Assembly: GCA_947459525.1 (NCBI GenBank)
Contig: CANHDW010000003.1
Span: forward strand, 1-49,849
Origin: Candidatus Caenarcanales bacterium
GTDB taxonomy: Bacteria; Cyanobacteriota; Vampirovibrionia; LMEP-6097
Direction of reading: 5' to 3'
DNA length: 49,849 nucleotides
Part shown: positions 6,926 to 37,263 of the stretch, piece after piece
Layout: every line of letters starts with the position of its first letter
Numbering within the stretch: the first letter of the stretch is position 1
Notes under the pieces: generated by a model
What the model was told of the DNA's origin: nothing
The model's input: the letters and a program-made list of their open reading frames with translations, nothing else
The model's database searches: none
Translations under genes and position numbers: made by a program

Positions 6926-9421
6926 TTAATTGCTACTATTCATTAATAAAGCAAGTTTCTCCACAAGTTCTGCTGGATGGAAATTTGAACTGCCCCCAAT
7001 TATTACCATTCCAGTATTATCATTATTTGAGAAATTAACGTAAGTACTAGTACCGGGTATGGAACCTAATTTTAAAATATGCCCATCATTTAGATACCAG
7101 CCGAGTCCAATTTCACTAGAGCCAACCTCGCCCCCTGTAATAGAATTTTTCTGAACTTCTTGAGCTAATAACAGGGCAGATTCTATGGGAGATAGCTCTA
7201 AACCTTGTTCAGCTTTGTCTTTAGCTTGCATATTAGCTTGTAAGAATTTAACTAAATCTTCCGTTGTTGAATGGATGCCACCACTTCCGACAAAGGTATC
7301 GGTTACACCTGCGATTTTACCTTGATTAAACCCTTTTGCTAAATTTGCACTCTCGCTTGAGGATAAAGTTATTTTAGTTGTATCTAATCCTAGCGGGTCT
7401 AAAACACGATCATTTAGAAGATTTTCAAAGGTTGTTTCTGGAATATATTCTTCTCCAGATTCTTGGGTATGAGCAAAGGCTAGGGCTTCTTCTAATAAAC
7501 CATAACCATAATTACTATATTTATATTCTTTACCTGGTTCGCTTGCAAGTGTCGTAGATTCTACAAATGAAAATAAATCATCGACATCTTTACTGTCGGT
7601 GGGGTTCGTTGCAGGGTCTCTTAAGCCCGATGTGTGGGTTGCTAAATCTTCAAGAGTGATTTCTTTACCATTGTATTTTGGTAACTCAACGCCCGGGGGA
7701 AGGTACTGCTGCACTGGATCATCTAAATCTACTTCACCGCGTTCAACCATGTCAGCAAGTAGGGTTGCCGTTAAAGTTTTACTTACTGAACCGATTGAGA
7801 ATGTAGTATCTTCTGTTGGTGCCTGTACTCCATTTTTGGTATTAAGATCTGTGTCACCGACACTGTAGTACTTGGTTTGATCTCCATTGATTAATGCTAT
7901 GGATATTGGATAATTCTTTCCTGCTGAGTTTGCATATTCATTTAATAAATCTTGTACTGCTTTATCGCTTGGGAAACTTTTACTATTATTACTTTCTATG
8001 GCTTCATAATTTCCAGCCCAATACTGACTCATTTCACCAGTATTAAGATCGCCCCCGAGTACACCATCTTTATCGGTATCAAACTGTTCCCAGACATTTA
8101 AAAGCTCGTCAAAGTTTAATTTCCCATCTTTATCCGCATCATTTTTACTCACATGCTCATTCCAAGCACCTTTATTCCAGCCGAAAGAAGCCATTTCTTT
8201 ACCATCAAGGCTGCCATCTTTGTTTTTATCCCAAACATTATTGAAATTCACTTTATATTGTTCTTTAAATTTTATATCCTGTGCTGAATCACTAGGATCT
8301 TCATAATTTCCAGCCCAATACTGACTCATTTCACCAGTATTAAGATCGCCCCCGAGTACACCATCTTTATCGGTATCAAACTGTTTCCAGACATTTAAAA
8401 GCTCGTCAAAGTTTAATTTCCCATCTTTATTCGCATCATTTTTACTCACATGCTCATTCCAAGCACCTTTATTCCAGCCGAAAGAAGCCATTTCTTTACC
8501 ACCAAGGCTGCCATCTTTATTTTTATCCCAAACATTATTAAAATCAGCTTTATACTGCTCTGTAAATTTTGTATCTTGGAATGTTTCCACTGCACCGCCA
8601 TCTGGGTCTCCCATATCTTGAGGGTTTTCAGGAAAATGATCGCCATATCTTGGTCTAACAAACTCTCCAAGCTTATCTGTTAAGTGATAATCTACAAATT
8701 GTTCATTTAGTAAACTTACATATTTATTATCGGGGTCAGCAGATTTATATCCTTCTTCACCCCAGAAGTCAAACTGTATGTCATAAGCTTTGATTTCCTC
8801 CTGTATAGAATTTGTTTTTCCTTCTAGCGCACCATCTTTAGGATCATGCAGGTCTACATGAGCAAGTTCATGTATGAGTAAAGCTGCAACTACCTCAGCT
8901 GGAGCTTCTTCTAATAATTTCTTATCTAATTGTACTTCCTGCTTATCGCTACCTAGATTTTTAACTCGTGCCAAAATATTTTGACCAGTTACCGCTTTAG
9001 CATCAAATGATGATATTTTAGTATTTTCAAGATTATCAAGTATGCTAGAAAGTTCTGGATTTTCTACAATGTAATTTGCTATTAATTCTTTCGCATCATC
9101 TAGCTTAGTGCCTTTATTGGGACTTTGACTTCCCTCAAACTTCACCTCTTCTATACCACTGTCAATCTGTATTTGTGAGTTAGTAGCTTTGTTCGTTTTA
9201 TTATCAGATTTGATGACATTGTTTGAACTATCAACAATCAGCGTGTCATCACCAATTTTAGATTGATGATTCGTCGTAATACCTAATTCACTAGCCCGCT
9301 GTCTTACGGTATTAGTCTGTTTTTGAATATCAGCCTGATCAAGAGAAGAGTCTCCCTTTGTAAGCTGTTTATTCAAAGAGCCTAAGTCTGTTCTTAGGTT
9401 ATTGATCCTTGGGTTAAGCAT
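6926..9421 (-). CDS. multidomain protein: HExxH metalloprotease-like region, EF-hand repeats, serine hydrolase (beta-lactamase/AmpC fold)
   Basis: LIHELAH...EEIKAY; DKNKDG/DTDKDG loops; SVSK and YSN motifs; GGAG RBS. Confidence 0.85.
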   Translation of the reverse strand: MLNPRINNLRTDLGSLNKQLTKGDSSLDQADIQKQTNTVRQRASELGITTNHQSKIGDDTLIVDSSNNVIKSDNKTNKATNSQIQIDSGIEEVKFEGSQSPNKGTKLDDAKELIANYIVENPELSSILDNLENTKISSFDAKAVTGQNILARVKNLGSDKQEVQLDKKLLEEAPAEVVAALLIHELAHVDLHDPKDGALEGKTNSIQEEIKAYDIQFDFWGEEGYKSADPDNKYVSLLNEQFVDYHLTDKLGEFVRPRYGDHFPENPQDMGDPDGGAVETFQDTKFTEQYKADFNNVWDKNKDGSLGGKEMASFGWNKGAWNEHVSKNDANKDGKLNFDELLNVWKQFDTDKDGVLGGDLNTGEMSQYWAGNYEDPSDSAQDIKFKEQYKVNFNNVWDKNKDGSLDGKEMASFGWNKGAWNEHVSKNDADKDGKLNFDELLNVWEQFDTDKDGVLGGDLNTGEMSQYWAGNYEAIESNNSKSFPSDKAVQDLLNEYANSAGKNYPISIALINGDQTKYYSVGDTDLNTKNGVQAPTEDTTFSIGSVSKTLTATLLADMVERGEVDLDDPVQQYLPPGVELPKYNGKEITLEDLATHTSGLRDPATNPTDSKDVDDLFSFVESTTLASEPGKEYKYSNYGYGLLEEALAFAHTQESGEEYIPETTFENLLNDRVLDPLGLDTTKITLSSSESANLAKGFNQGKIAGVTDTFVGSGGIHSTTEDLVKFLQANMQAKDKAEQGLELSPIESALLLAQEVQKNSITGGEVGSSEIGLGWYLNDGHILKLGSIPGTSTYVNFSNNDNTGMVIIGGSSNFHPAELVEKLALLMNSSN
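8002..8578. repeat. intragenic tandem duplication, 297-bp period (99 aa)
   Basis: near-identical copies at about 8002-8281 and 8299-8578. Confidence 0.95.
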
Positions 9422-12477: not shown

Positions 12478-13317
12478 TTAGATAGTCTTAGTGCTGAGTT
12501 CAGAATTTTGATTTTTAAATAGAGAGATTATATTTTCTGTAAAAGCTTTAAGGTACTTATTATTTAGTTCTTCTGCTGTAATATTATCATCAAACTCAAT
12601 GGTAATGCAGTCCAGTCCTTTGTCTTTAGAGTAAGAACCAAGTGAGCCAGGAGTTGGATAGCCGATATCTTCGGTGAATTCCAGTTCTGTATCGCGTGCA
12701 AGTTTTATCGCAAAGTCTTTATGAGTACCTAGCCCATCATAGTTGACTTGTGGGGGATTTGGGAAGCGAATGAAATGGTTAGTATGAAAACTAATAATTA
12801 AATCAAAATCAAGACCCTCTATTAATTTAGTTAAAAGCTGAGTTTCGATTTCACTTGCAGGAAAGTCACCAGGGTAATAGGGGTTTTTTTCACCATCTAT
12901 TCTAAATTTTGCACTCTGCCAGTTTTGGCTTGGCATATTACGATTTAAATCTACGTCATTATGGTTATGACGAGTAAAATTTTTCAGGCCATGTGGATTT
13001 AATGCGGGAATTGCGATGATTTTAAAATCTTTAAGTTGATCTATATTGAGCTCTAGATCATTAATTTGGAGAGCAGTTTCTTCGACTGAATGTGCTGTTA
13101 GTCCAAGTAATTGAGATATTGACAATATGCCTATTGATCTTTTGTTGAGATCAGTATTTATAGAGCTATGCACTACTCCATTTTCTGAATTTTCATCAGT
13201 CTCATCTATAGATAGTATTTGGGTAAGTAGACTGTTCAAAAAGGCAGAACTTTGAGGCTCTACTCCGTGCGTTCCTGCTACTAATAATAGCCTCATTGGC
13301 AACGGTTCCCTTATCAA
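12478..13317 (-). CDS. mpaA: M14 zinc carboxypeptidase, murein peptide amidase MpaA-like
   Basis: HGVE, NPHG, DLNRN, SFH, GYPTPGSLG and TIE motifs. Confidence 0.8.
   Translation of the reverse strand: MIREPLPMRLLLVAGTHGVEPQSSAFLNSLLTQILSIDETDENSENGVVHSSINTDLNKRSIGILSISQLLGLTAHSVEETALQINDLELNIDQLKDFKIIAIPALNPHGLKNFTRHNHNDVDLNRNMPSQNWQSAKFRIDGEKNPYYPGDFPASEIETQLLTKLIEGLDFDLIISFHTNHFIRFPNPPQVNYDGLGTHKDFAIKLARDTELEFTEDIGYPTPGSLGSYSKDKGLDCITIEFDDNITAEELNNKYLKAFTENIISLFKNQNSELSTKTI
13161..13205 (-). repeat. in-frame MITE end remnant in mpaA (ETDENSENGVVHSS)
   Basis: CACTACTCCATTTTCTGAATTTTCATC resembles the element end CACAACTCCATTTTCTGCGTTTTTGTC. Confidence 0.6.
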
Positions 13318-15617: not shown

Positions 15618-16922
15618 ATGTCACAAGATCAACACAGGTTAAAGTCCCTAGATGCGCTGAAGACTTACGACTCAGGTTATCAGGACATTTTTTATAAAAG
15701 AAGCCAAAAAGATAGGTTTAACAAATATTTAAGTAGATATCTTCAGGGTCAATCTCTTGGCCTGCATGATGAATTAACTAACAGACCAGACTTAATGGAC
15801 TCTTTAGATATTAAGAGTTTGTTTATTTTAAATGCTTTGACCTATGAAATTCATTTAGAGGAAAAGAATCTCTTTGCAATAAAAAGAAATGAATTTATAG
15901 CTAACTCTCTTGTAAAGAAGCTTATAGATATTTATACGAAGATTTATAAATATGTTCAGTTAGATGAGGAATTAGATAAAAGATTTAAGAATATAGATTT
16001 TTATACTATTGCCAACTTATTACCAACTGTAATCGTTTACTATACTGATTTTATATTAGTGAACCAGCTTGAAGAGCTTTATCCTAAAGCATTTGAAATA
16101 TTATCTAATAAAAATTTATTTGATAATTTAAAAGAAGAATCTTTAAAGCCAGAGAGGTTGCGTTTACTTGCTCTATATCATAGACGTAATAAGGATTTGG
16201 GGAAAGCTGATGATGTGATGCTAGAGTATAGAGAGCAGTATCTCCCGGACTTAACCAAGAAAGTTAATTTAAAGAAATTACCAAACAAGCATAGTTACCC
16301 ACCTTCGGAAGTGGTTAATAATCTAGGTGTCCTTTATCAGGAGATCAAAGATATTCAGACAGAGGTCTGTGACCTAACTGGGGTTAATGAAGACACTTGT
16401 TTCTATTATAGTTGTTCAGAATGCTGTCATAATGACTATCCTGTACTCTATTATTCTGAATATAAATATTTGGTCCAAAAACTCAAAGAAGAAGGACGTG
16501 ATATCGAAATTTATAAAGCCAAGGCGAGAGATATTCAAAGCCAGCATGTAGAAAAGTATGGCTATGAGCTAAAGATCACGAATAAACATAGACCAACTAA
16601 AGAAGATGCGAATCCTAATGATTTTAAATATAGTTGTCCTTTTTTAGGTGAATCGGGTGGCTGTTCGGTACACCAGATTCGTCCGATGATGTGCAGGGCC
16701 TACGGTCTTTCTACTTCTGACAACAGAAATGTTCAGTCTTGTAATTATTATCTAAAACAGCATCAGTACAATTCCAATTATGAGAACATTCGTTATGTTT
16801 ATGACGTCAGGCCTTATGTAGCTTTAATTGAGGCTAGCGATGCTTACCAAATCAAGCAGGATCTTAATGAGAGTAAAAATCTCTGTGGTACTTTTATTGC
16901 TTGGCTGTGTAGTGATTATTAA
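15618..16922 (+). CDS. YkgJ-family cysteine-cluster protein with a long helical N-terminal region
   Basis: CxxxCSECC, CPFL, CSVHQIRPMMCRAYG. Confidence 0.8.
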   Translation: MSQDQHRLKSLDALKTYDSGYQDIFYKRSQKDRFNKYLSRYLQGQSLGLHDELTNRPDLMDSLDIKSLFILNALTYEIHLEEKNLFAIKRNEFIANSLVKKLIDIYTKIYKYVQLDEELDKRFKNIDFYTIANLLPTVIVYYTDFILVNQLEELYPKAFEILSNKNLFDNLKEESLKPERLRLLALYHRRNKDLGKADDVMLEYREQYLPDLTKKVNLKKLPNKHSYPPSEVVNNLGVLYQEIKDIQTEVCDLTGVNEDTCFYYSCSECCHNDYPVLYYSEYKYLVQKLKEEGRDIEIYKAKARDIQSQHVEKYGYELKITNKHRPTKEDANPNDFKYSCPFLGESGGCSVHQIRPMMCRAYGLSTSDNRNVQSCNYYLKQHQYNSNYENIRYVYDVRPYVALIEASDAYQIKQDLNESKNLCGTFIAWLCSDY

Positions 16923-16937
16923 AAGCTCGCTCAGGAA

Positions 16938-17127
16938 GAGACCACTGCACAACGTGCAGTTTCAAGGCTGAGGAGGACGAATGACCGCAGTGTAATTTCC
17001 AGCGATGCCGAGTATGCGACACGAGTGTCGTACGCGAGCAAGCGGAAATACAAGCTCCGCTTACTACAAGTACATGAGGATCATGAGGACGACAAAAACG
17101 CAGAAAATGGAGTTGTGCAGTGGTCTC
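16938..17127 (+). mobile_element. 190-bp MITE-like palindromic element, intergenic copy
   Basis: perfect 16-bp TIR GAGACCACTGCACAAC...GTTGTGCAGTGGTCTC; AGGAA on both sides; second copy at 18538-18727. Confidence 0.9.
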
Positions 17128-18940
17128 AGGAAGTGTATTCTGCATTAATCTTCACATAGTCATAACTTAAATCATTCCCAAGAAAATGTGCAGAATTTAG
17201 AGCTTTGTTTTCGATAGTCGATTTATTTTTAGTTAAACTTATAACTATCTCTACGTGCCTTGCTTGTTTCAATCGCTTAGCGAGTCTATCTAAATCCTCG
17301 CCAAAAATCTGTGCAGAAGCATTTTTAAAAACACAGCTATCTAATAGATTTACTTCAATTAAACTCATGTCTAAACCTTCTAGTAGAGCTTCTTCCCGTG
17401 CGAAAGCTGCAACTATGCGCCCCCAATTGGGGTCATTACCAAAGATGGCGGTTTTAACCAACATTGAGTTAATAATATTTCTGCCGATTTTTTGAAGATT
17501 TAACTGACTGATAGGTAAGTTTTCTAGCTTGAGGTCTATGATTTTGGTTAAACCTTCACCATCTGCGATAATCTGATAGCAGAGTCCTTTGCAGACTTCT
17601 TCAAGAGATGCTTTGAATTCTTCTTTGCTGATTTCTTCTCCAGTAAAATTATTTAATAGGAGAACCATATCATTAGTACTGGTATCACCGTCTACGCTGA
17701 TGTTATTAAAAGTAGTGCTGACGATTTCACTTACAGTTTCCTGCATAAATTCCGTGGCTTTTTCATTATTAAGACCTAAAATTTTTACATCTGTAATAAT
17801 AAAGCCAAGCATGGTCGCCATGTTTGGAGCTATCATGCCAGAACCTTTACAGATGCCAAGGAATCGCTGTTTCTGATCCTGACTGATCTTTGGAACAGTA
17901 TCTGTGGTCATAATCGCTCTGGCGAAATCATAGACAGCTTCATAAGATTTAGAATTTTTCTTTTCTTTTATTTTTTCTGTGAAAACCTTTTTAGCGTGAC
18001 TCAGGTCAAGCTTACGTCCTATAACCCCCGTACTCGCCGACAGTACTTTTGGACACTGCTTGCAGTCTCCAATTTCTGCGATATTTTCAATAAAATCTTC
18101 AAGCAGTTTCCTTAAATCATTATCTGCTTTAACCCCTTCTTCTCCAGTGCAGCAGTTAGCATTACCAGAATTGGCGATAAGACCATGGACGGTTTTAGAT
18201 TTTAATTCTATGTTATGTTCTACGCATACAGCTTTCATCGCATTTTTTGTAAAAGTACCAGCCCAAGAACAGGGTTTTTCTGAAAATAAAACTGCCATAT
18301 CTAAATTATTTATTTTAGAGACAGCTTTAATTCCCGAGTGAAAACCCGTGAGGGAGAAGTATTTAGGTAGTGATGGTATGTAGGCTTTAGCTAAAAGAGT
18401 GTAGCCTTCTGCACAGTAGTAAAGGGCTAGAGGCATTAAAGCATAACTGTAAGCTTGTATGCCCTGTGCAAGTAATAAGGATTTCTCTTCTTCAGAGGGT
18501 ATTTCACCGTCGGCAAGAGCAGCTACTTTAATTCCTAGGCACTGCTGCTGAACTCCAATTTCTGCGTTTTCGTCGTCCTCATGATCCTCATGTACGTTAA
18601 GTAAGCGGAGCTTGTATTTCCGCTTGCTCGCATACGACACTGGTGTCGCATCCTCGGCATCGCTGGAAATTACATTGCGGTCATTCGTCCTCCTCAGCCT
18701 TGAACTTGCACGTTCGGCAGCAGTGCCCTCTAAGGACTGCTGCCGAACTCCAAGTTCTGCGTCTTCGTCGTTAATCTGGGATGTATACAATTCAGTAACA
18801 GGGATAAAACCTATATTCCTAGGACTAGAACCTGTTAAATTCAGATGATCTACTATCCTCAGTTCTTTTCCAGCAAGCTCTTCTGTAAGTGGAATTACAG
18901 GGATAAATATTTCTTTGATTTTCATCTTTCCATTAGCCAT
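17126..18940 (-). CDS. argJ: ornithine acetyltransferase ArgJ with an N-terminal extension containing MITE insertions
   Basis: NSGNAN, STGVIG, IMTTD, KGSGMIAPNMATML, DTSTND and DPNWGR motifs. Confidence 0.92.
   Translation of the reverse strand: MANGKMKIKEIFIPVIPLTEELAGKELRIVDHLNLTGSSPRNIGFIPVTELYTSQINDEDAELGVRQQSLEGTAAERASSRLRRTNDRNVISSDAEDATPVSYASKRKYKLRLLNVHEDHEDDENAEIGVQQQCLGIKVAALADGEIPSEEEKSLLLAQGIQAYSYALMPLALYYCAEGYTLLAKAYIPSLPKYFSLTGFHSGIKAVSKINNLDMAVLFSEKPCSWAGTFTKNAMKAVCVEHNIELKSKTVHGLIANSGNANCCTGEEGVKADNDLRKLLEDFIENIAEIGDCKQCPKVLSASTGVIGRKLDLSHAKKVFTEKIKEKKNSKSYEAVYDFARAIMTTDTVPKISQDQKQRFLGICKGSGMIAPNMATMLGFIITDVKILGLNNEKATEFMQETVSEIVSTTFNNISVDGDTSTNDMVLLLNNFTGEEISKEEFKASLEEVCKGLCYQIIADGEGLTKIIDLKLENLPISQLNLQKIGRNIINSMLVKTAIFGNDPNWGRIVAAFAREEALLEGLDMSLIEVNLLDSCVFKNASAQIFGEDLDRLAKRLKQARHVEIVISLTKNKSTIENKALNSAHFLGNDLSYDYVKINAEYTS
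18051..18088 (-). repeat. in-frame MITE end remnant in the ArgJ core (ENIAEIGDCKQCP)
   Basis: GGACACTGCTTGCAGTCTCCAATTTCTGCG versus GGCACTGCTGCTGAACTCCAATTTCTGCG. Confidence 0.7.
18538..18727 (-). mobile_element. 190-bp MITE-like element read in frame within argJ
   Basis: TIR GGCACTGCTGCYGAAC (15/16 complementary); interior differs from the intergenic copy at 11 of 158 positions by manual count. Confidence 0.9.
18733..18770 (-). repeat. adjacent MITE end remnant in argJ (DEDAELGVRQQS)
   Basis: AGGACTGCTGCCGAACTCCAAGTTCTGCGTCTTCGTCG. Confidence 0.85.
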
Positions 18941-19944
18941 AGTGGTTGAAATACGGAAGAAGCTGTACCATTTTCACCAGTTAAAAGATTTTTTATAGAA
19001 TCTTTCTGTGACATCTTCATGCCGAAGAGACCCTCTAGGGAAGAAAATTGACCACCATCCCAAGTCTCTCTGAATGCTAGGCTGTCAGCACCTCTTACTT
19101 TATATTTAGTTTTTAATAAATCTTTCAGAATAACTTTAGAGTCTTCTAATGTTCCAAGATGATCGACTAGACCGACTTCTTTTGCTTGAGAGCCCGTATA
19201 AATTATCCCTCTTGCGATAATCTGAAGCTTATCTATTTCGATACCCCTACCAGCATGAATATCATTTAAAAATTGATCATAACTGTTTTCTAGGAGCTTA
19301 TTTAAGATACTTATTTCTTCAGGTATTAATTCTCTTTGACTAGAGCCTATATCCTTAAATTTACCTGCTTTAAATGTCTGGTCTTTAATACCAAGCCTAT
19401 CAAAAAAACCTTTAAGATTCACGCCCTGACTGATAACCCCGATGCTACCAGTAAGAGTACCGGGGTTCGCGACGATGGAATCAGCGGCACTCGCTATGTA
19501 ATAGCAACCACTGCCACATATGTCTCCCATAGAGACTAATACTGGTTTTTTAGCTTCACGAAGTTTTTTTACTAATTGATAAATTTCTTGACTAGCTGCG
19601 ACCGTTCCACCAGGACTATTCATTCTTAAAAGAACTGCTTTCGCTTTTTTATCATCTAAGGCTTTTTGTAATTCTTGTTTACAGCTAATGGCATCGGTAG
19701 CAGAGCTAAAAGGACTACTTTTCGCAAATCCATCATAAATAACACCTTCAAGCCCAATGATTGGAATGTAATCTTGATAATTACCGATTTGAGATAATAG
19801 TTCCTTCTTAACTTCATTTCCAGAATGCATCTGCCCTTGTCCGTCTTTTAAAAGAACCATACCAAGGACCGAAGATAATAAACAGAGAGCTACCAATGTG
19901 ATAACTACTATTATCTCTCTTTTTTCTTGCTTAATTAAACTCAT
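18922..19944 (-). CDS. sppA: signal peptide peptidase SppA (36K type)
   Basis: NSPGG, SMGDICGSGCYY, GSIGV and KAGKFKD motifs; N-terminal TM. Confidence 0.92.
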   Translation of the reverse strand: MSLIKQEKREIIVVITLVALCLLSSVLGMVLLKDGQGQMHSGNEVKKELLSQIGNYQDYIPIIGLEGVIYDGFAKSSPFSSATDAISCKQELQKALDDKKAKAVLLRMNSPGGTVAASQEIYQLVKKLREAKKPVLVSMGDICGSGCYYIASAADSIVANPGTLTGSIGVISQGVNLKGFFDRLGIKDQTFKAGKFKDIGSSQRELIPEEISILNKLLENSYDQFLNDIHAGRGIEIDKLQIIARGIIYTGSQAKEVGLVDHLGTLEDSKVILKDLLKTKYKVRGADSLAFRETWDGGQFSSLEGLFGMKMSQKDSIKNLLTGENGTASSVFQPLWLMER

Positions 19945-33170: not shown

Positions 33171-33203
33171 GGGCGTGTAGCGAAACTCCAATTTCTGCGT
33201 TTT
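33171..33203 (-). repeat. intergenic MITE end remnant between queA and adk
   Basis: GGGCGTGTAGCGAAACTCCAATTTCTGCGTTTT; last 20 nt identical to the argJ copy. Confidence 0.8.
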
Positions 33204-34386
33204 AAAGCAAAAGGCAGCAGTCACCATAACTAAAGAATCGATATTTTTCTTCAACGGCTATCTGGTAAAGGGTTTTACATTCCTCTATGCCAATTAATGT
33301 GCTTACTAATAGTAGTAAAGTGGATTTAGGTAGATGAAAATTAGTGAGAAGCCCATCTATAATTTTAAATTTAAAATTTCCAGGATAAATATATAAATCA
33401 GTCTCACCACGTAATTTACCAGTAATAGCTATGCTTTCAAGACAGCGTAAGCTAGTAGTGCCGATAGCGATTACCCTCCTCCCTTCGGCTTTGGCTGACT
33501 GAATTTTATCCCAGTTTTCAGAGATAATTTCATAAGTCTCGAAATGCATCTTATGGTCTTTTACTTCGCTTACGCTGACAGGCTTAAAGGTTCCTATGCC
33601 TACATCTAGATTTAAGTCTATAAATTCAACTCCTTTTCTTGTAAGTGCTTGAATAATTTCTTCGGTGAAATGCAATCCAGCAGTAGGCGCTGCAATGCTG
33701 CTACCTAGAGAGTCTTGTTTAGAATAGACTGTCTGATAGCGTTCTTTATCACTATCTTCAGCACTCCTTTGTAGATAAGGTGGTATCGGCATAGTGCCGT
33801 GATTCGTGATTATGTTTATAAATTGCTCATAGCTTTTGAATTCAACTATCATCATCCCATCTTCATTCGAAGATCGCTGCACAACTCCATTTTCTGTGTT
33901 TCCCTTGAAAATAATTATTTCTTCGGATGAGCCACTTATGATATAAGATCGAGGGTTAGTTTTAATTTTTTTCCCAGGCTTAGCTAGAGCCGTCCAGCAA
34001 TATTTTTTATCATGGGACTGCTCGAAAATTCTAAATTCTGCATTTCCATAATCTCCATCATCCTCATGATCCGACAATTCTTTAACTAAAAGTATTTCGA
34101 TAGCTTTGTTTTCAGGCTTCTCTTTATCTATCACAAAAAATCTCGCTGCTAGCACTCTAGTGACATTCCTCACTAAAATATCACCGGCTTTTAGAATGGA
34201 GCATATATCTTTAAAGGATTTATGTTCGATATTTTTATTAAGTTCTTGTGAAATAGTGCCTTGGAGATTTGGTGCTTCCTGGATTTCTCGCTTATAATAG
34301 AGCAAGCGAGAATTATCCCTTTTATCTAGTGGATACTTAGCGACTAATTCCTCTGGTAGCTCAAAATCAAAATCGTCAATTAACAT
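33202..34386 (-). CDS. queA: S-adenosylmethionine:tRNA ribosyltransferase-isomerase
   Basis: FDFELPEEL, PIPPY, AAPTAGLHF, TNFHLPKSTL and YRFFSYGD motifs. Confidence 0.96.
   Translation of the reverse strand: MLIDDFDFELPEELVAKYPLDKRDNSRLLYYKREIQEAPNLQGTISQELNKNIEHKSFKDICSILKAGDILVRNVTRVLAARFFVIDKEKPENKAIEILLVKELSDHEDDGDYGNAEFRIFEQSHDKKYCWTALAKPGKKIKTNPRSYIISGSSEEIIIFKGNTENGVVQRSSNEDGMMIVEFKSYEQFINIITNHGTMPIPPYLQRSAEDSDKERYQTVYSKQDSLGSSIAAPTAGLHFTEEIIQALTRKGVEFIDLNLDVGIGTFKPVSVSEVKDHKMHFETYEIISENWDKIQSAKAEGRRVIAIGTTSLRCLESIAITGKLRGETDLYIYPGNFKFKIIDGLLTNFHLPKSTLLLLVSTLIGIEECKTLYQIAVEEKYRFFSYGDCCLLL
33870..33901 (-). repeat. in-frame MITE end remnant in queA (NTENGVVQRSS)
   Basis: AAGATCGCTGCACAACTCCATTTTCTGTGTTT versus GAGACCACTGCACAACTCCATTTTCTGCGTTT. 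Confidence 0.85.
34014..34072 (-). repeat. in-frame MITE end remnant in queA (DHEDDGDYGNAEFRIFEQS)
   Basis: shares TCCTCATGATCC, TTCTGC and a GGACTGCT terminus with the element. Confidence 0.7.
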
Positions 34387-37114: not shown

Positions 37115-37156
37115 AATGCTTTAATTATCTCACGGATATTTTATCATTAAGTTTTA

Positions 37157-37228
37157 AAGTATCTAATTTATTAGATATTTTGTAAATAATATTATTAAGT
37201 ATCTAATTTATTAGATACTTAATAATAT
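37157..37228. promoter_or_regulatory. two palindromic HipB-type operators TATCT-N8-AGATA
   Basis: AAGTATCTAATTTATTAGATAYTT at 37157 and 37197; E. coli HipB operator is TATCC-N8-GGATA. Confidence 0.8.
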
Positions 37229-37263
37229 GGTGGGTATAATATCTGATAGATTGGATATTTTAT

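What the first reader, a model, noticed from the sequence alone, without database searches (positions are those of the whole stretch)
16933..18770. Protein-coding palindromic MITE family (RPE-like) with a full copy translated inside ArgJ
Seen: two 190-bp copies with 16-bp TIRs and interiors differing at 11 of 158 nt. The intergenic copy has an AGGAA duplication, and 190+5=195 bp is 65 codons, so an insertion preserves frame. Both copies are stop-free in the frame RLRRTNDR.VISSDAE.AT.VSYASKRKYKLRLL.VHEDHEDD.NAE.GV, and the argJ copy is read in that frame; its flanks (TCCTA/CTCTA) are only an imperfect duplication. Established: Rickettsia palindromic elements insert in frame in conserved genes. 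I know of no such family described in this lineage. No cognate transposase is in the window.
Basis: partly seen in the sequence, partly recalled or inferred. Interest (0 to 1): 0.85.

Follow-up and report, generated by a model that had tools for sequence, protein, structure and literature searches.

The report
Frame-preserving mobile palindromes inside Vampirovibrionia genes
A small GC-rich mobile DNA hairpin has spread through the genomes of one genus of non-photosynthetic relatives of cyanobacteria, and because its size keeps the reading frame, about half of its copies sit inside ordinary genes such as argJ, probably adding extra peptide loops to the proteins.

Summary
They belong to a large family: 177 right-module cores in the 1.02-Mb, 54%-complete assembly, and DNA matches in 6 of 6 other genomes of the genus, whose public records are titled Vampirovibrionia/Melainabacteria. 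The basic unit is 121 nt and makes a 5-nt target duplication (121+5=126). The 190-nt form is that unit plus a nested 67-nt module with a TA duplication (+69). Of the cores, 88 of 177 lie in the one open sense frame inside ORFs of at least 100 aa, against 19 in the other five frames. The argJ copy interrupts a conserved N-terminal domain with a purine-nucleoside-phosphorylase-like fold. Relatives have empty, short, medium or long states at that site, all in frame, so translation starts upstream of the element. The likeness to Rickettsia palindromic elements is supported by analogy, not by membership. The outer arms are hypervariable yet complementary, while the interior is nearly invariant. No transposase was found. 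My literature searches found no description.

The parts
16938..17127 (+). Copy 1: 190-nt composite element (121-nt unit plus B module) between the convergent genes 15618-16922 (+) and argJ (-). Its last bases overlap the argJ stop codon.
   Evidence: orthologous site empty in G003, 121-nt form in G001/G004/G005
16933..16937 (.). Left copy of the 5-nt target duplication AGGAA of copy 1
17128..17132 (.). Right copy of the 5-nt target duplication AGGAA of copy 1. It overlaps the last sense codon of argJ and the first base of its stop codon.
16995..17061 (+). B module of copy 1: a 67-nt nested insertion flanked by TA (16993-16994 and 17062-17063). It is absent from the otherwise identical element at the same site in G001 and G005.
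18538..18727 (-). Copy 2: 190-nt composite element read in frame as residues about 71-135 of the ArgJ ORF
   Evidence: the same copy is in an independent assembly (P0002)
18604..18670 (-). B module of copy 2 (67 nt, flanked by TA)
   Evidence: the orthologous copy in G006 lacks it
18731..18772 (-). Solo right-end piece (C core plus right arm), residues 57-70 (NDEDAELGVRQQSL), directly upstream of copy 2
18047..18088 (-). Second argJ site: solo right-end piece inside the ArgJ domain (residues 285-298). G002, G004, G005, G006 and P0002 carry a full 121-nt unit here.
17126..18940 (-). ArgJ ORF, 604 aa: conserved PNP-like N-terminal domain (residues 1 to about 195, interrupted by the element) plus the ArgJ domain (198-604)
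13162..13205 (-). In-frame right-end piece (…DENSENGVVHSS…) in the M14-peptidase-like ORF 12478-13317
33871..33901 (-). In-frame right-end piece in ORF 33202-34386. A weaker one (3 mismatches) lies at 34030-34044.
33171..33201 (-). Right-end piece (core plus arm) immediately after the stop codon of ORF 33202-34386

Best explanation
The two copies belong to a large family of non-autonomous mobile palindromic elements (MITE-like) in one genus of Vampirovibrionia (Melainabacteria). The propagating unit is 121 nt. It has a 16-nt left arm, a conserved purine-rich left module (A), a short GTAC-loop-GTAC hairpin, a conserved right module (C) and a 16-nt right arm complementary to the left one. It inserts with a 5-nt target duplication, so each insertion adds 126 nt, or 42 codons. 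One sense frame is free of stops and encodes a hydrophilic, charged peptide. Insertions in that orientation and phase leave host ORFs intact and survive, while others inside genes are presumably purged (inferred). About half of all remaining pieces therefore lie in frame in genes. A second small module (B, 67 nt) inserts at the TA of the central GTAC with a TA duplication (+69 nt, 23 codons). Longer B variants give 199- and 202-nt forms, which also keep the frame. Copy 1 landed on the last codons of argJ and left the stop codon intact. Copy 2 sits in a loop of a conserved PNP-like N-terminal domain of ArgJ and is most likely translated as a disordered excursion. Copies then decay or change in place: internal deletions, collapse between direct right-module repeats, tandem duplication, and gain or loss of B. 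Every variant seen at the argJ sites keeps the frame. The enzyme that moves the elements is unknown. I infer a trans-acting enzyme that makes a 5-nt staggered cut and recognises the conserved interior plus a terminal helix rather than the sequence of the arms.
For: Family size and spread: 116 blastn matches in 79 loci; 177 C cores; DNA matches in 10 of 41 related genomes, that is the window's own genome, 6 of 6 others of its genus and 3 of 18 in other genera of its family (weak, diverged matches), and 0 of 16 in other families. Transposition: perfect 5-nt flanking repeats in 9 of 35 arm-complete copies (one is a tandem-array artefact) against 0.84% in the control, P about 1e-11, and none at k = 3, 4, 6, 7 or 8; 18 of 74 against 0.61% in 80 loci from five other assemblies. 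Frame design: length+5 is a multiple of 3 in 28 of 35 and 64 of 74 copies; exactly 121 nt in 20 of 35 and 55 of 74; the sense frame is open in 28 of 35 copies, including intergenic ones. Genic bias: 88 of 177 cores in the sense frame inside ORFs of at least 100 aa, 19 in the other five frames, 70 in none; the replicate gives 100, 15 and 77 of 192; 73 distinct ORFs are affected. Host genes are ordinary: radical SAM, TsaE, PNP, signal peptidase, CCA/poly(A) polymerase and a PyrK-like protein. In the protein database, 252 longer proteins carry the 65-aa peptide, with more than 30 Pfam architectures among the 120 listed by my count. ArgJ: the N-terminal extension is conserved, with invariant residues on both sides of the insert in 17 of 17 sequences. 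Site 1 is empty in 11 of 11 aligned sequences from other genera and in G003. It has a solo piece in G002/G005, a stem-only form in G001/G004, a 121-nt form in G006 and the long form here; the site lengths 87, 99, 144, 225 and 294 nt are all multiples of 3. An independent assembly, identical at 586 of 599 aligned residues apart from one 53-aa gap, has the same long copy and 53 extra residues at site 2. In the AF2 model, residues 56-132 have pLDDT below 50 between well-predicted strands. B module: G001 and G005 have the same element at the 3' site with identical arms, lacking exactly 69 nt bounded by TA.
Against: No autonomous partner was found. Tn3-type transposase: 0 of 7 genomes. Y1/RAYT: 0 of 7. 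The DDE_Tnp_1, rve and DDE_3 genes that exist lack the element's arms nearby. No left module has a distant matching right arm among 39 left-module cores in G000 or 175 in all held loci. Translation is inferred from frame conservation only; there are no proteomic data. No RNA-library contig bridges an argJ-element junction. The argJ copy lacks a clean duplication (3 of 5) and is preceded by a solo right-end piece, so it may have arisen by insertion next to an older copy or by duplication and recombination, not by a simple single insertion. Hypervariable termini with a conserved interior are the opposite of an ordinary MITE. 'Genic' rests on stop-to-stop ORFs, not on a gene caller. The assembly is 54.5% complete and repeats break contigs.
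Confidence: 0.85

Rival explanations
1. The elements move through a structure-dependent single-strand or RNA intermediate, not through a classical TIR-binding DDE transposase. That could be a hairpin-recognising HUH/RAYT-like enzyme or a reverse-transcribed hairpin RNA. The arms would only need to pair, and the conserved interior would be the recognition or catalytic part.
For: The arms covary. In 111 A+C copies not selected on their arms, the mean is 2.5 mismatches of 16 within a copy against 6.45 between copies, with 65 distinct left arms. Arm entropy is 0.99 bit against 0.18 bit for the interior. No DDE partner was found. Element arms are abundant in contigs of RNA libraries, though DNA carry-over cannot be excluded.
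Against: A fixed 5-nt duplication is typical of staggered double-strand cuts and is not made by known HUH transposases (established knowledge, recalled). Y1 transposase was found in 0 of 7 genomes. No Rfam ribozyme or RNA family matched at E up to 1. Subfamily inheritance alone explains part of the covariation.
Confidence: 0.2
2. ArgJ translation starts downstream of the element (for example at M169), and the element lies in a 5' leader or in a dead upstream gene fragment.
For: The Pfam ArgJ domain starts only at residue 198. More distant families of the class have plain ArgJ of about 400 aa.
Against: The extension is conserved in frame in 17 of 17 aligned orthologues, with invariant residues on both sides of the insert. 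It folds confidently as a PNP-like half domain. All six length variants of the site in the genus keep the frame.
Confidence: 0.03
3. The repeated sequence is a host-selected peptide module (a linker or interaction motif) spread by recombination, not selfish DNA.
For: One frame is strongly preferred. The peptide is hydrophilic and charged (GRAVY -1.1).
Against: Variability shows no third-codon-position excess (0.148, 0.25 and 0.152 bit at codon positions 1, 2 and 3). Genic and non-genic copies look alike. There are many intergenic copies with target duplications. Close strains differ in presence or absence. AF2 gives no confident structure for the segment.
Confidence: 0.05
4. The 190-nt forms are ancestral and the 121-nt forms are their deletion products. 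On this reading B is not a separate insertion.
For: Central deletions of long palindromes are common (established knowledge, recalled). Shorter nested forms of 44-78 nt exist.
Against: The 121-nt form is exact in 87 of 111 A+C copies. B is bounded by a TA repeat. In different long variants B sits at either of the two GTAC sites. One solo B-like copy lies outside any element, at C31:8582-8654.
Confidence: 0.15

Closest known systems
Rickettsia palindromic elements (RPE)
   Same: Short palindromic repeats that carry an open frame and are found inserted in frame in many unrelated housekeeping genes. The review PMC10969869 (passages read) describes them as an unusually frequent case of such fusions (44 integrations in R. 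conorii as first reported).
   Different: A different phylum (record titles). No sequence comparison with RPE consensus sequences was possible here. This family shows a clear 5-nt target duplication and length+duplication in multiples of 3; that RPEs lack clear duplications is my recollection, not a call. The density is higher: 73 ORFs in half a genome. The hosts are not known to be obligate intracellular.
Bacterial MITEs with ORF fusions (Correia, ERIC, BOX, Coxiella QMITE, Anabaena MITEs)
   Same: Small, multi-copy, with terminal inverted repeats, target duplications and hairpin folding. In-frame fusions occur occasionally (PMC10969869, PMC5896051, PMC3184786; passages read).
   Different: In those families the inverted ends are the conserved part (PMC3184786 describes TIRs around a core). 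Here the 16-nt arms are the most variable part and the interior is nearly invariant. In-frame genic copies are the largest class here, not the exception.
REP/REPIN elements mobilised by RAYT (Y1) transposases
   Same: Hairpin-forming repeats whose two arms stay complementary.
   Different: REPINs are extragenic and make no target duplication (recalled). No Y1 transposase was found in 7 of 7 genomes searched. Here duplications are present and half the copies are genic.
Tn3-derived inverted-repeat miniature elements (TIMEs)
   Same: A 5-nt target duplication. Many copies start with GGG (my recollection of Tn3 ends, not tested).
   Different: No Tn3-family transposase in 7 of 7 genomes of the genus. 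The arms are variable, unlike a conserved inverted repeat of about 38 bp.
Coding palindromes in Nematomorpha mitochondrial genes (PMC6649704) and palindromic amphipathic repeat coding elements of Mollicutes (PMC2996958)
   Same: Inverted repeats embedded in protein-coding sequence and translated (search listing and abstract starts only).
   Different: Different genomes and sequences. Those papers were not read beyond the listing, so no feature-by-feature comparison was made.

Membership tests
MITE (bacterial miniature inverted-repeat transposable element) | Small element without a transposase gene, in many dispersed copies | tested here: met
   Units of 44-202 nt; 79 loci in 1.02 Mb; DNA matches in 6 of 6 other genomes of the genus
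MITE (bacterial miniature inverted-repeat transposable element) | Terminal inverted repeats | tested here: met
   16-nt arms; 92 of 111 A+C copies have at most 3 mismatches. The arm sequence is hypervariable, which is atypical.
MITE (bacterial miniature inverted-repeat transposable element) | Target-site duplication of fixed length | tested here: met
   Exactly 5 nt; 9 of 35 and 18 of 74 perfect against 0.6-0.8% in controls
MITE (bacterial miniature inverted-repeat transposable element) | A cognate autonomous IS with the same ends | tested here: inconclusive
   None found in G000 or the held loci. The genomes are draft MAGs in which IS copies are often unassembled.
Rickettsia palindromic elements (RPE) | Palindromic repeat with an open frame inserted in frame in unrelated genes | tested here: met
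Rickettsia palindromic elements (RPE) | Sequence relationship to the RPE families / occurrence in Rickettsia | tested here: not met
   The records holding the element are titled Vampirovibrionia / Melainabacteria / Cyanobacteria. RPE consensus sequences were not at hand for an alignment.
REPIN/RAYT system | A Y1 (RAYT) transposase gene in the genome, and no target duplication | tested here: not met
   PF01797 in 0 of 7 genomes, which are 54-93% complete. 5-nt duplications are present.
Tn3-derived TIME | A Tn3-family transposase in the lineage and conserved Tn3-type inverted repeats | tested here: not met
   PF01526 in 0 of 7 genomes. The arms are variable. Only the 5-nt duplication fits.
ArgJ (PF01960, ornithine acetyltransferase) | Full-length match to the family profile | tested here: met
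   E 1.1e-101, residues 198-604 on profile positions 3-377 of 377

The most novel reading that the evidence does not exclude
This is a selfish element adapted to live inside coding sequence, and it is moved by a structure-reading mechanism that has not been described. Every module adds a whole number of codons once its own target duplication is counted (121+5, 67+2). One frame is kept stop-free even in intergenic copies. The enzyme tolerates any arm sequence as long as the arms pair. That would explain the conserved interior, the free-running covarying termini, and the preference for inserting beside the right end of resident copies. If so, this is an RPE-like system with a readable insertion signature. 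It would give a way to find the long-missing mobilisation machinery of protein-coding palindromes.
Probability: 0.3. Interest if true: 0.85.

Novelty: new variant of a known kind. Interest (0 to 1): 0.72.

Why it matters
In-frame colonisation of housekeeping genes by selfish palindromes has been regarded as a peculiarity of Rickettsia (review PMC10969869). Here the same outcome appears in an unrelated, poorly known lineage found mainly in freshwater metagenomes. The density is higher: 73 ORFs in about half a genome. This makes two questions testable. One is how selfish DNA can create new peptide segments in essential proteins. The other is what machinery moves such elements. In practice, these repeats break assemblies and lengthen predicted proteins, so annotation and homology searches in this clade need to take them into account.

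Tried and rejected
Rfam scan of 16700-19000 at E up to 1: three weak, unrelated matches, none on the elements.

Intrinsic terminators around copy 1: 0 found, so there is no support for a terminator role.

Transposase searches in the 7 genomes of the genus: PF01526 0/7, PF01797 0/7, PF01609 5/7, PF00665 5/7, PF13358 2/7. In the 12 loci fetched, the element's arm and module motifs gave only four weak arm-like hits (12 nt, 2 mismatches) and no module hit. The two DDE_3 loci show no inverted repeats like the element's ends.

Search for an autonomous form (a left module with a matching right arm up to 6-7 kb away): only neighbouring copies in G000 and none in all held loci.

Expression: three RNA-library runs hold contigs over argJ 18078-18343 and many element arms, including A-C forms that skip 69 or 75 nt. 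No contig bridges an argJ-element junction, and DNA carry-over cannot be excluded, so this is neither support for nor evidence against translation. The DNA run X1 has no single contig across the element.

Plasmid and phage collections (blastn, distant mode): no match.

Pfam and PDB-sequence searches of the N-terminal domain: nothing significant. The fold search did give PNP.

Literature: 'Melainabacteria' + 'miniature inverted-repeat' gave 1 unrelated paper. 'Melainabacteria' + 'palindromic' gave 33 papers; of the 15 listed, 14 are Mendelian-randomisation studies and 1 an unrelated review. 'Vampirovibrionia' + 'miniature inverted-repeat' gave 0. One search was too loosely framed to be useful. 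Supplementary files of papers were not opened. ISfinder, Dfam and Repbase are not available here, so 'not described' rests on these searches only.

Rows dropped: from the ArgJ alignments I left out L045 (G017; its open frame starts near residue 185) and L049 (G008; it has an unrelated insertion of about 39 aa at the same loop). L047 (G023) is but not in alignment A1.

The script stopped with an error after printing site 1 for seven genomes and site 2 for three. I did not rerun it and used the protein alignment for the rest.
Full report
OBSERVATION. The window holds two 190-nt elements in opposite orientation, 16938-17127 (+) and 18538-18727 (-). The repeat finder reports 176-nt arms that are 91% complementary. 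In each copy one sense frame is free of stops, and it is the same frame in both. Copy 2 is read in it within the 604-aa ORF 17126-18940. The elements are 51-53% G+C in a genome of 35.7% and fold much better than shuffled sequence (z -4.8).

THE FAMILY. The window is contig C3 of a 1.02-Mb assembly of 48 contigs, 54.5% complete. blastn with copy 1 finds 116 matches that merge into 79 loci. The family is modular. It has a left module A (39 cores), a right module C (177 cores with at most 2 mismatches) and a middle module B that only long forms have. Of 35 copies with both arms, 20 are exactly 121 nt. The long forms are 190, 199 or 202 nt, and short nested forms of 44-78 nt exist. There are tandem arrays with periods of 123 and 126 nt. 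The same DNA was found in 6 of 6 other genomes of the genus, with 14 to 315 first-look candidates each. Diverged versions occur in 3 of 18 genomes from other genera of the family, and none in 16 genomes of other families of the order and class. Protein-source names agree with this. Runs that hold the locus are mostly lake, lagoon, freshwater and other aquatic metagenomes.

IT TRANSPOSES. Nine of the 35 arm-complete copies are flanked by a perfect 5-nt direct repeat (AGGAA, AAGAT twice, AAGGT, AATTT, TTAAA, ATCAA, CTTAG; a ninth, AGAGG, is an artefact of a tandem array), and five more match at 4 of 5. When the left flank of one copy is paired with the right flank of another, 0.84% are perfect (P about 1e-11). 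No perfect repeat appears at k = 3, 4, 6, 7 or 8. In 80 loci (566 kb) from the five other assemblies, 18 of 74 are perfect against 0.61% in the control. Orthologous sites confirm mobility. Downstream of argJ, G003 has an empty site. G001, G004 and G005 have a 121-nt element flanked by the same duplication. The window has that element plus 69 nt. G006 has it plus a different insert of about 100 nt.

THE 190-NT FORM IS COMPOSITE. At the 3' site the arms in G001 and G005 are identical to those of the window. The window differs by exactly 67 nt plus a second TA at the TA of the central GTAC. The argJ copy shows the same relation to its 121-nt orthologue in G006. In the 199- and 202-nt variants a longer B sits at the other GTAC. 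B therefore behaves as a second-order insertion with a TA duplication. Gene conversion from other long copies cannot be excluded.

FRAME. Length plus 5 is a multiple of three in 28 of 35 and 64 of 74 arm-complete copies. B adds 69 nt. The sense frame is open in 28 of 35 copies, including intergenic ones. Of the 177 C cores, 88 lie in that frame inside stop-to-stop ORFs of at least 100 aa, 19 lie in the other five frames together, and 70 lie in no such ORF. The replicate gives 100, 15 and 77 of 192. Seventy-three distinct ORFs carry at least one in-frame piece. Six tested hosts are ordinary enzymes: radical SAM, TsaE, PNP, signal peptidase, CCA/poly(A) polymerase and a PyrK-like protein. In a 5.8-billion-protein collection, 252 longer proteins carry the 65-aa peptide. 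Among them are ArgJ, TrmE, ValRS, RadA, RibD, Sua5, DabA and SNF2 helicases. Variability among 82 distinct 121-nt copies shows no third-position excess (0.148, 0.25 and 0.152 bit at codon positions 1, 2 and 3), and genic and non-genic copies look alike. The conservation is therefore at the DNA level, not at the peptide level.

ARGJ. Pfam places the ArgJ domain at residues 198-604. The 195 residues before it are not a leader. In 17 of 17 aligned orthologues from 12 genera and two families they are in frame. Invariant residues lie upstream of the insert (D31 H32 N34 L35 G37 G44 F45 L51 Y52) and downstream of it (G145 E152 G160 A163 Y166 L173 A184 P192). An insert-free version folds with pLDDT 80.7, and Foldseek matches it to the C-terminal half of purine nucleoside phosphorylases (E 2e-5, TMq 0.6). 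Site 1 lies in a loop of this domain. It is empty in 11 of 11 aligned sequences from other genera and in G003. G002 and G005 have a 15-aa right-end piece. G001 and G004 add a stem-only remnant. G006 adds a 121-nt unit, and the window adds the long form. The site lengths are 87, 99, 144, 225 and 294 nt, all multiples of three. A second site inside the ArgJ domain (residues 285-298) has a solo piece here and in G001, and a full unit in G002, G004, G005 and G006. An independently assembled ArgJ, identical at 586 of 599 aligned residues apart from one 53-aa gap, has the same long copy at site 1 and 53 more residues at site 2. This confirms the assembly and shows very recent change. AlphaFold gives pLDDT below 50 for residues 56-132, between strands with pLDDT 80-94, as expected for a tolerated surface excursion. 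Translation itself is inferred and not shown. RNA-library contigs cover part of argJ and many element arms, but none bridges a junction.

WHAT IS ODD. In ordinary MITEs the inverted ends are the conserved part. Here the 16-nt arms are the most variable part (0.99 bit; 65 distinct left arms among 111 copies). Yet they pair within a copy: 2.5 mismatches of 16 on average, against 6.45 between copies. The interior is not palindromic, because both modules are purine-rich, and it is nearly invariant (0.18 bit). Subfamily inheritance explains part of this. Single copies with unique but perfectly paired arms (C10, C11 and C18) suggest compensatory change or arm-to-arm correction. A recurrent layout, a solo right-end piece followed by a full element that often has arms of another class, suggests insertion beside resident copies followed by collapse between the direct repeats. 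The hybrid arm of G001 at site 2 fits this. The genuine PNP gene of this genome carries the same layout in the loop equivalent to that of the PNP-like ArgJ domain. No mobilising enzyme was found. These are draft metagenome-assembled genomes, so absence is weak evidence.

COMPARISON AND VERDICT. By its defining features this is a MITE-like family: small size, inverted ends, a fixed duplication and many copies. Only the autonomous partner is missing. It behaves like the Rickettsia palindromic elements, which a 2024 review singles out for the unusual frequency of in-frame fusions (PMC10969869, passages). REPIN/RAYT and Tn3-derived elements fail tested features. My literature searches found no description in Melainabacteria or Vampirovibrionia. 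Repeat databases could not be consulted. I rate it a new variant of a known kind and of high interest.

Noticed in passing
window 18350-18940 (-); L039:2665-3042: ArgJ in this family and a sister family has a conserved N-terminal domain of about 125 aa with no Pfam match. Its model matches the C-terminal half of purine nucleoside phosphorylase. More distant families of the class have plain ArgJ of about 400 aa. The function of this half-domain fusion is unknown.
   Followed up: partly
L007:1014-1949 (G000 contig C9:2562-3497): The bona fide PNP gene carries a solo right-end piece plus a 202-nt element with a perfect ATCAA duplication. It sits in the loop equivalent to the insertion site in the PNP-like domain of ArgJ. 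This could be a permissive loop or a target preference.
   Followed up: partly
L049 (G008 argJ locus): Another genus has an unrelated insertion of about 39 aa at the same loop of the ArgJ N-terminal domain, so this loop seems generally permissive.
   Followed up: no
L037 (G006, downstream of argJ): The 121-nt element at the 3' site of argJ in G006 carries a different nested insert of about 100 nt inside its right module. This looks like a third small repeat type in the genus.
   Followed up: no
G000 contigs C33:5571-5790, C33:7947-8193, C14:28344-28622: Tandem arrays of the 121-nt unit with periods of 123 or 126 nt. The two C33 arrays lie inside ORFs of 364 and 377 aa, giving in-frame peptide repeats of 41-42 aa.
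   Followed up: partly
window 17126-17132: Copy 1 inserted on the last sense codon and stop codon of argJ. The element's first bases recreate the TGA, so the protein is unchanged.
   Followed up: yes
L065 and other RFQS01 records: An assembly titled 'Proteobacteria bacterium' holds many copies of the element, and its proteins carry the peptide. It probably belongs to the same Vampirovibrionia genus and is mislabelled.
   Followed up: no
window 8002-8578: Two direct copies of 280 nt, 95% identical, 297 nt apart. Not examined.
   Followed up: no
window 37155-37262: An AT-rich imperfect palindrome: 53-nt arms, 79% complementary, 2 nt apart, with a nearby 34-nt direct repeat. Not examined.
   Followed up: no
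window 18601-18671 in run X16: Contigs of an RNA library join the left and right modules while skipping exactly 69 nt (4 contigs) or 75 nt (2 contigs). These are B-less forms from other loci or alleles. Summed depth on the arms is about 100 times that on unique argJ sequence.
   Followed up: partly
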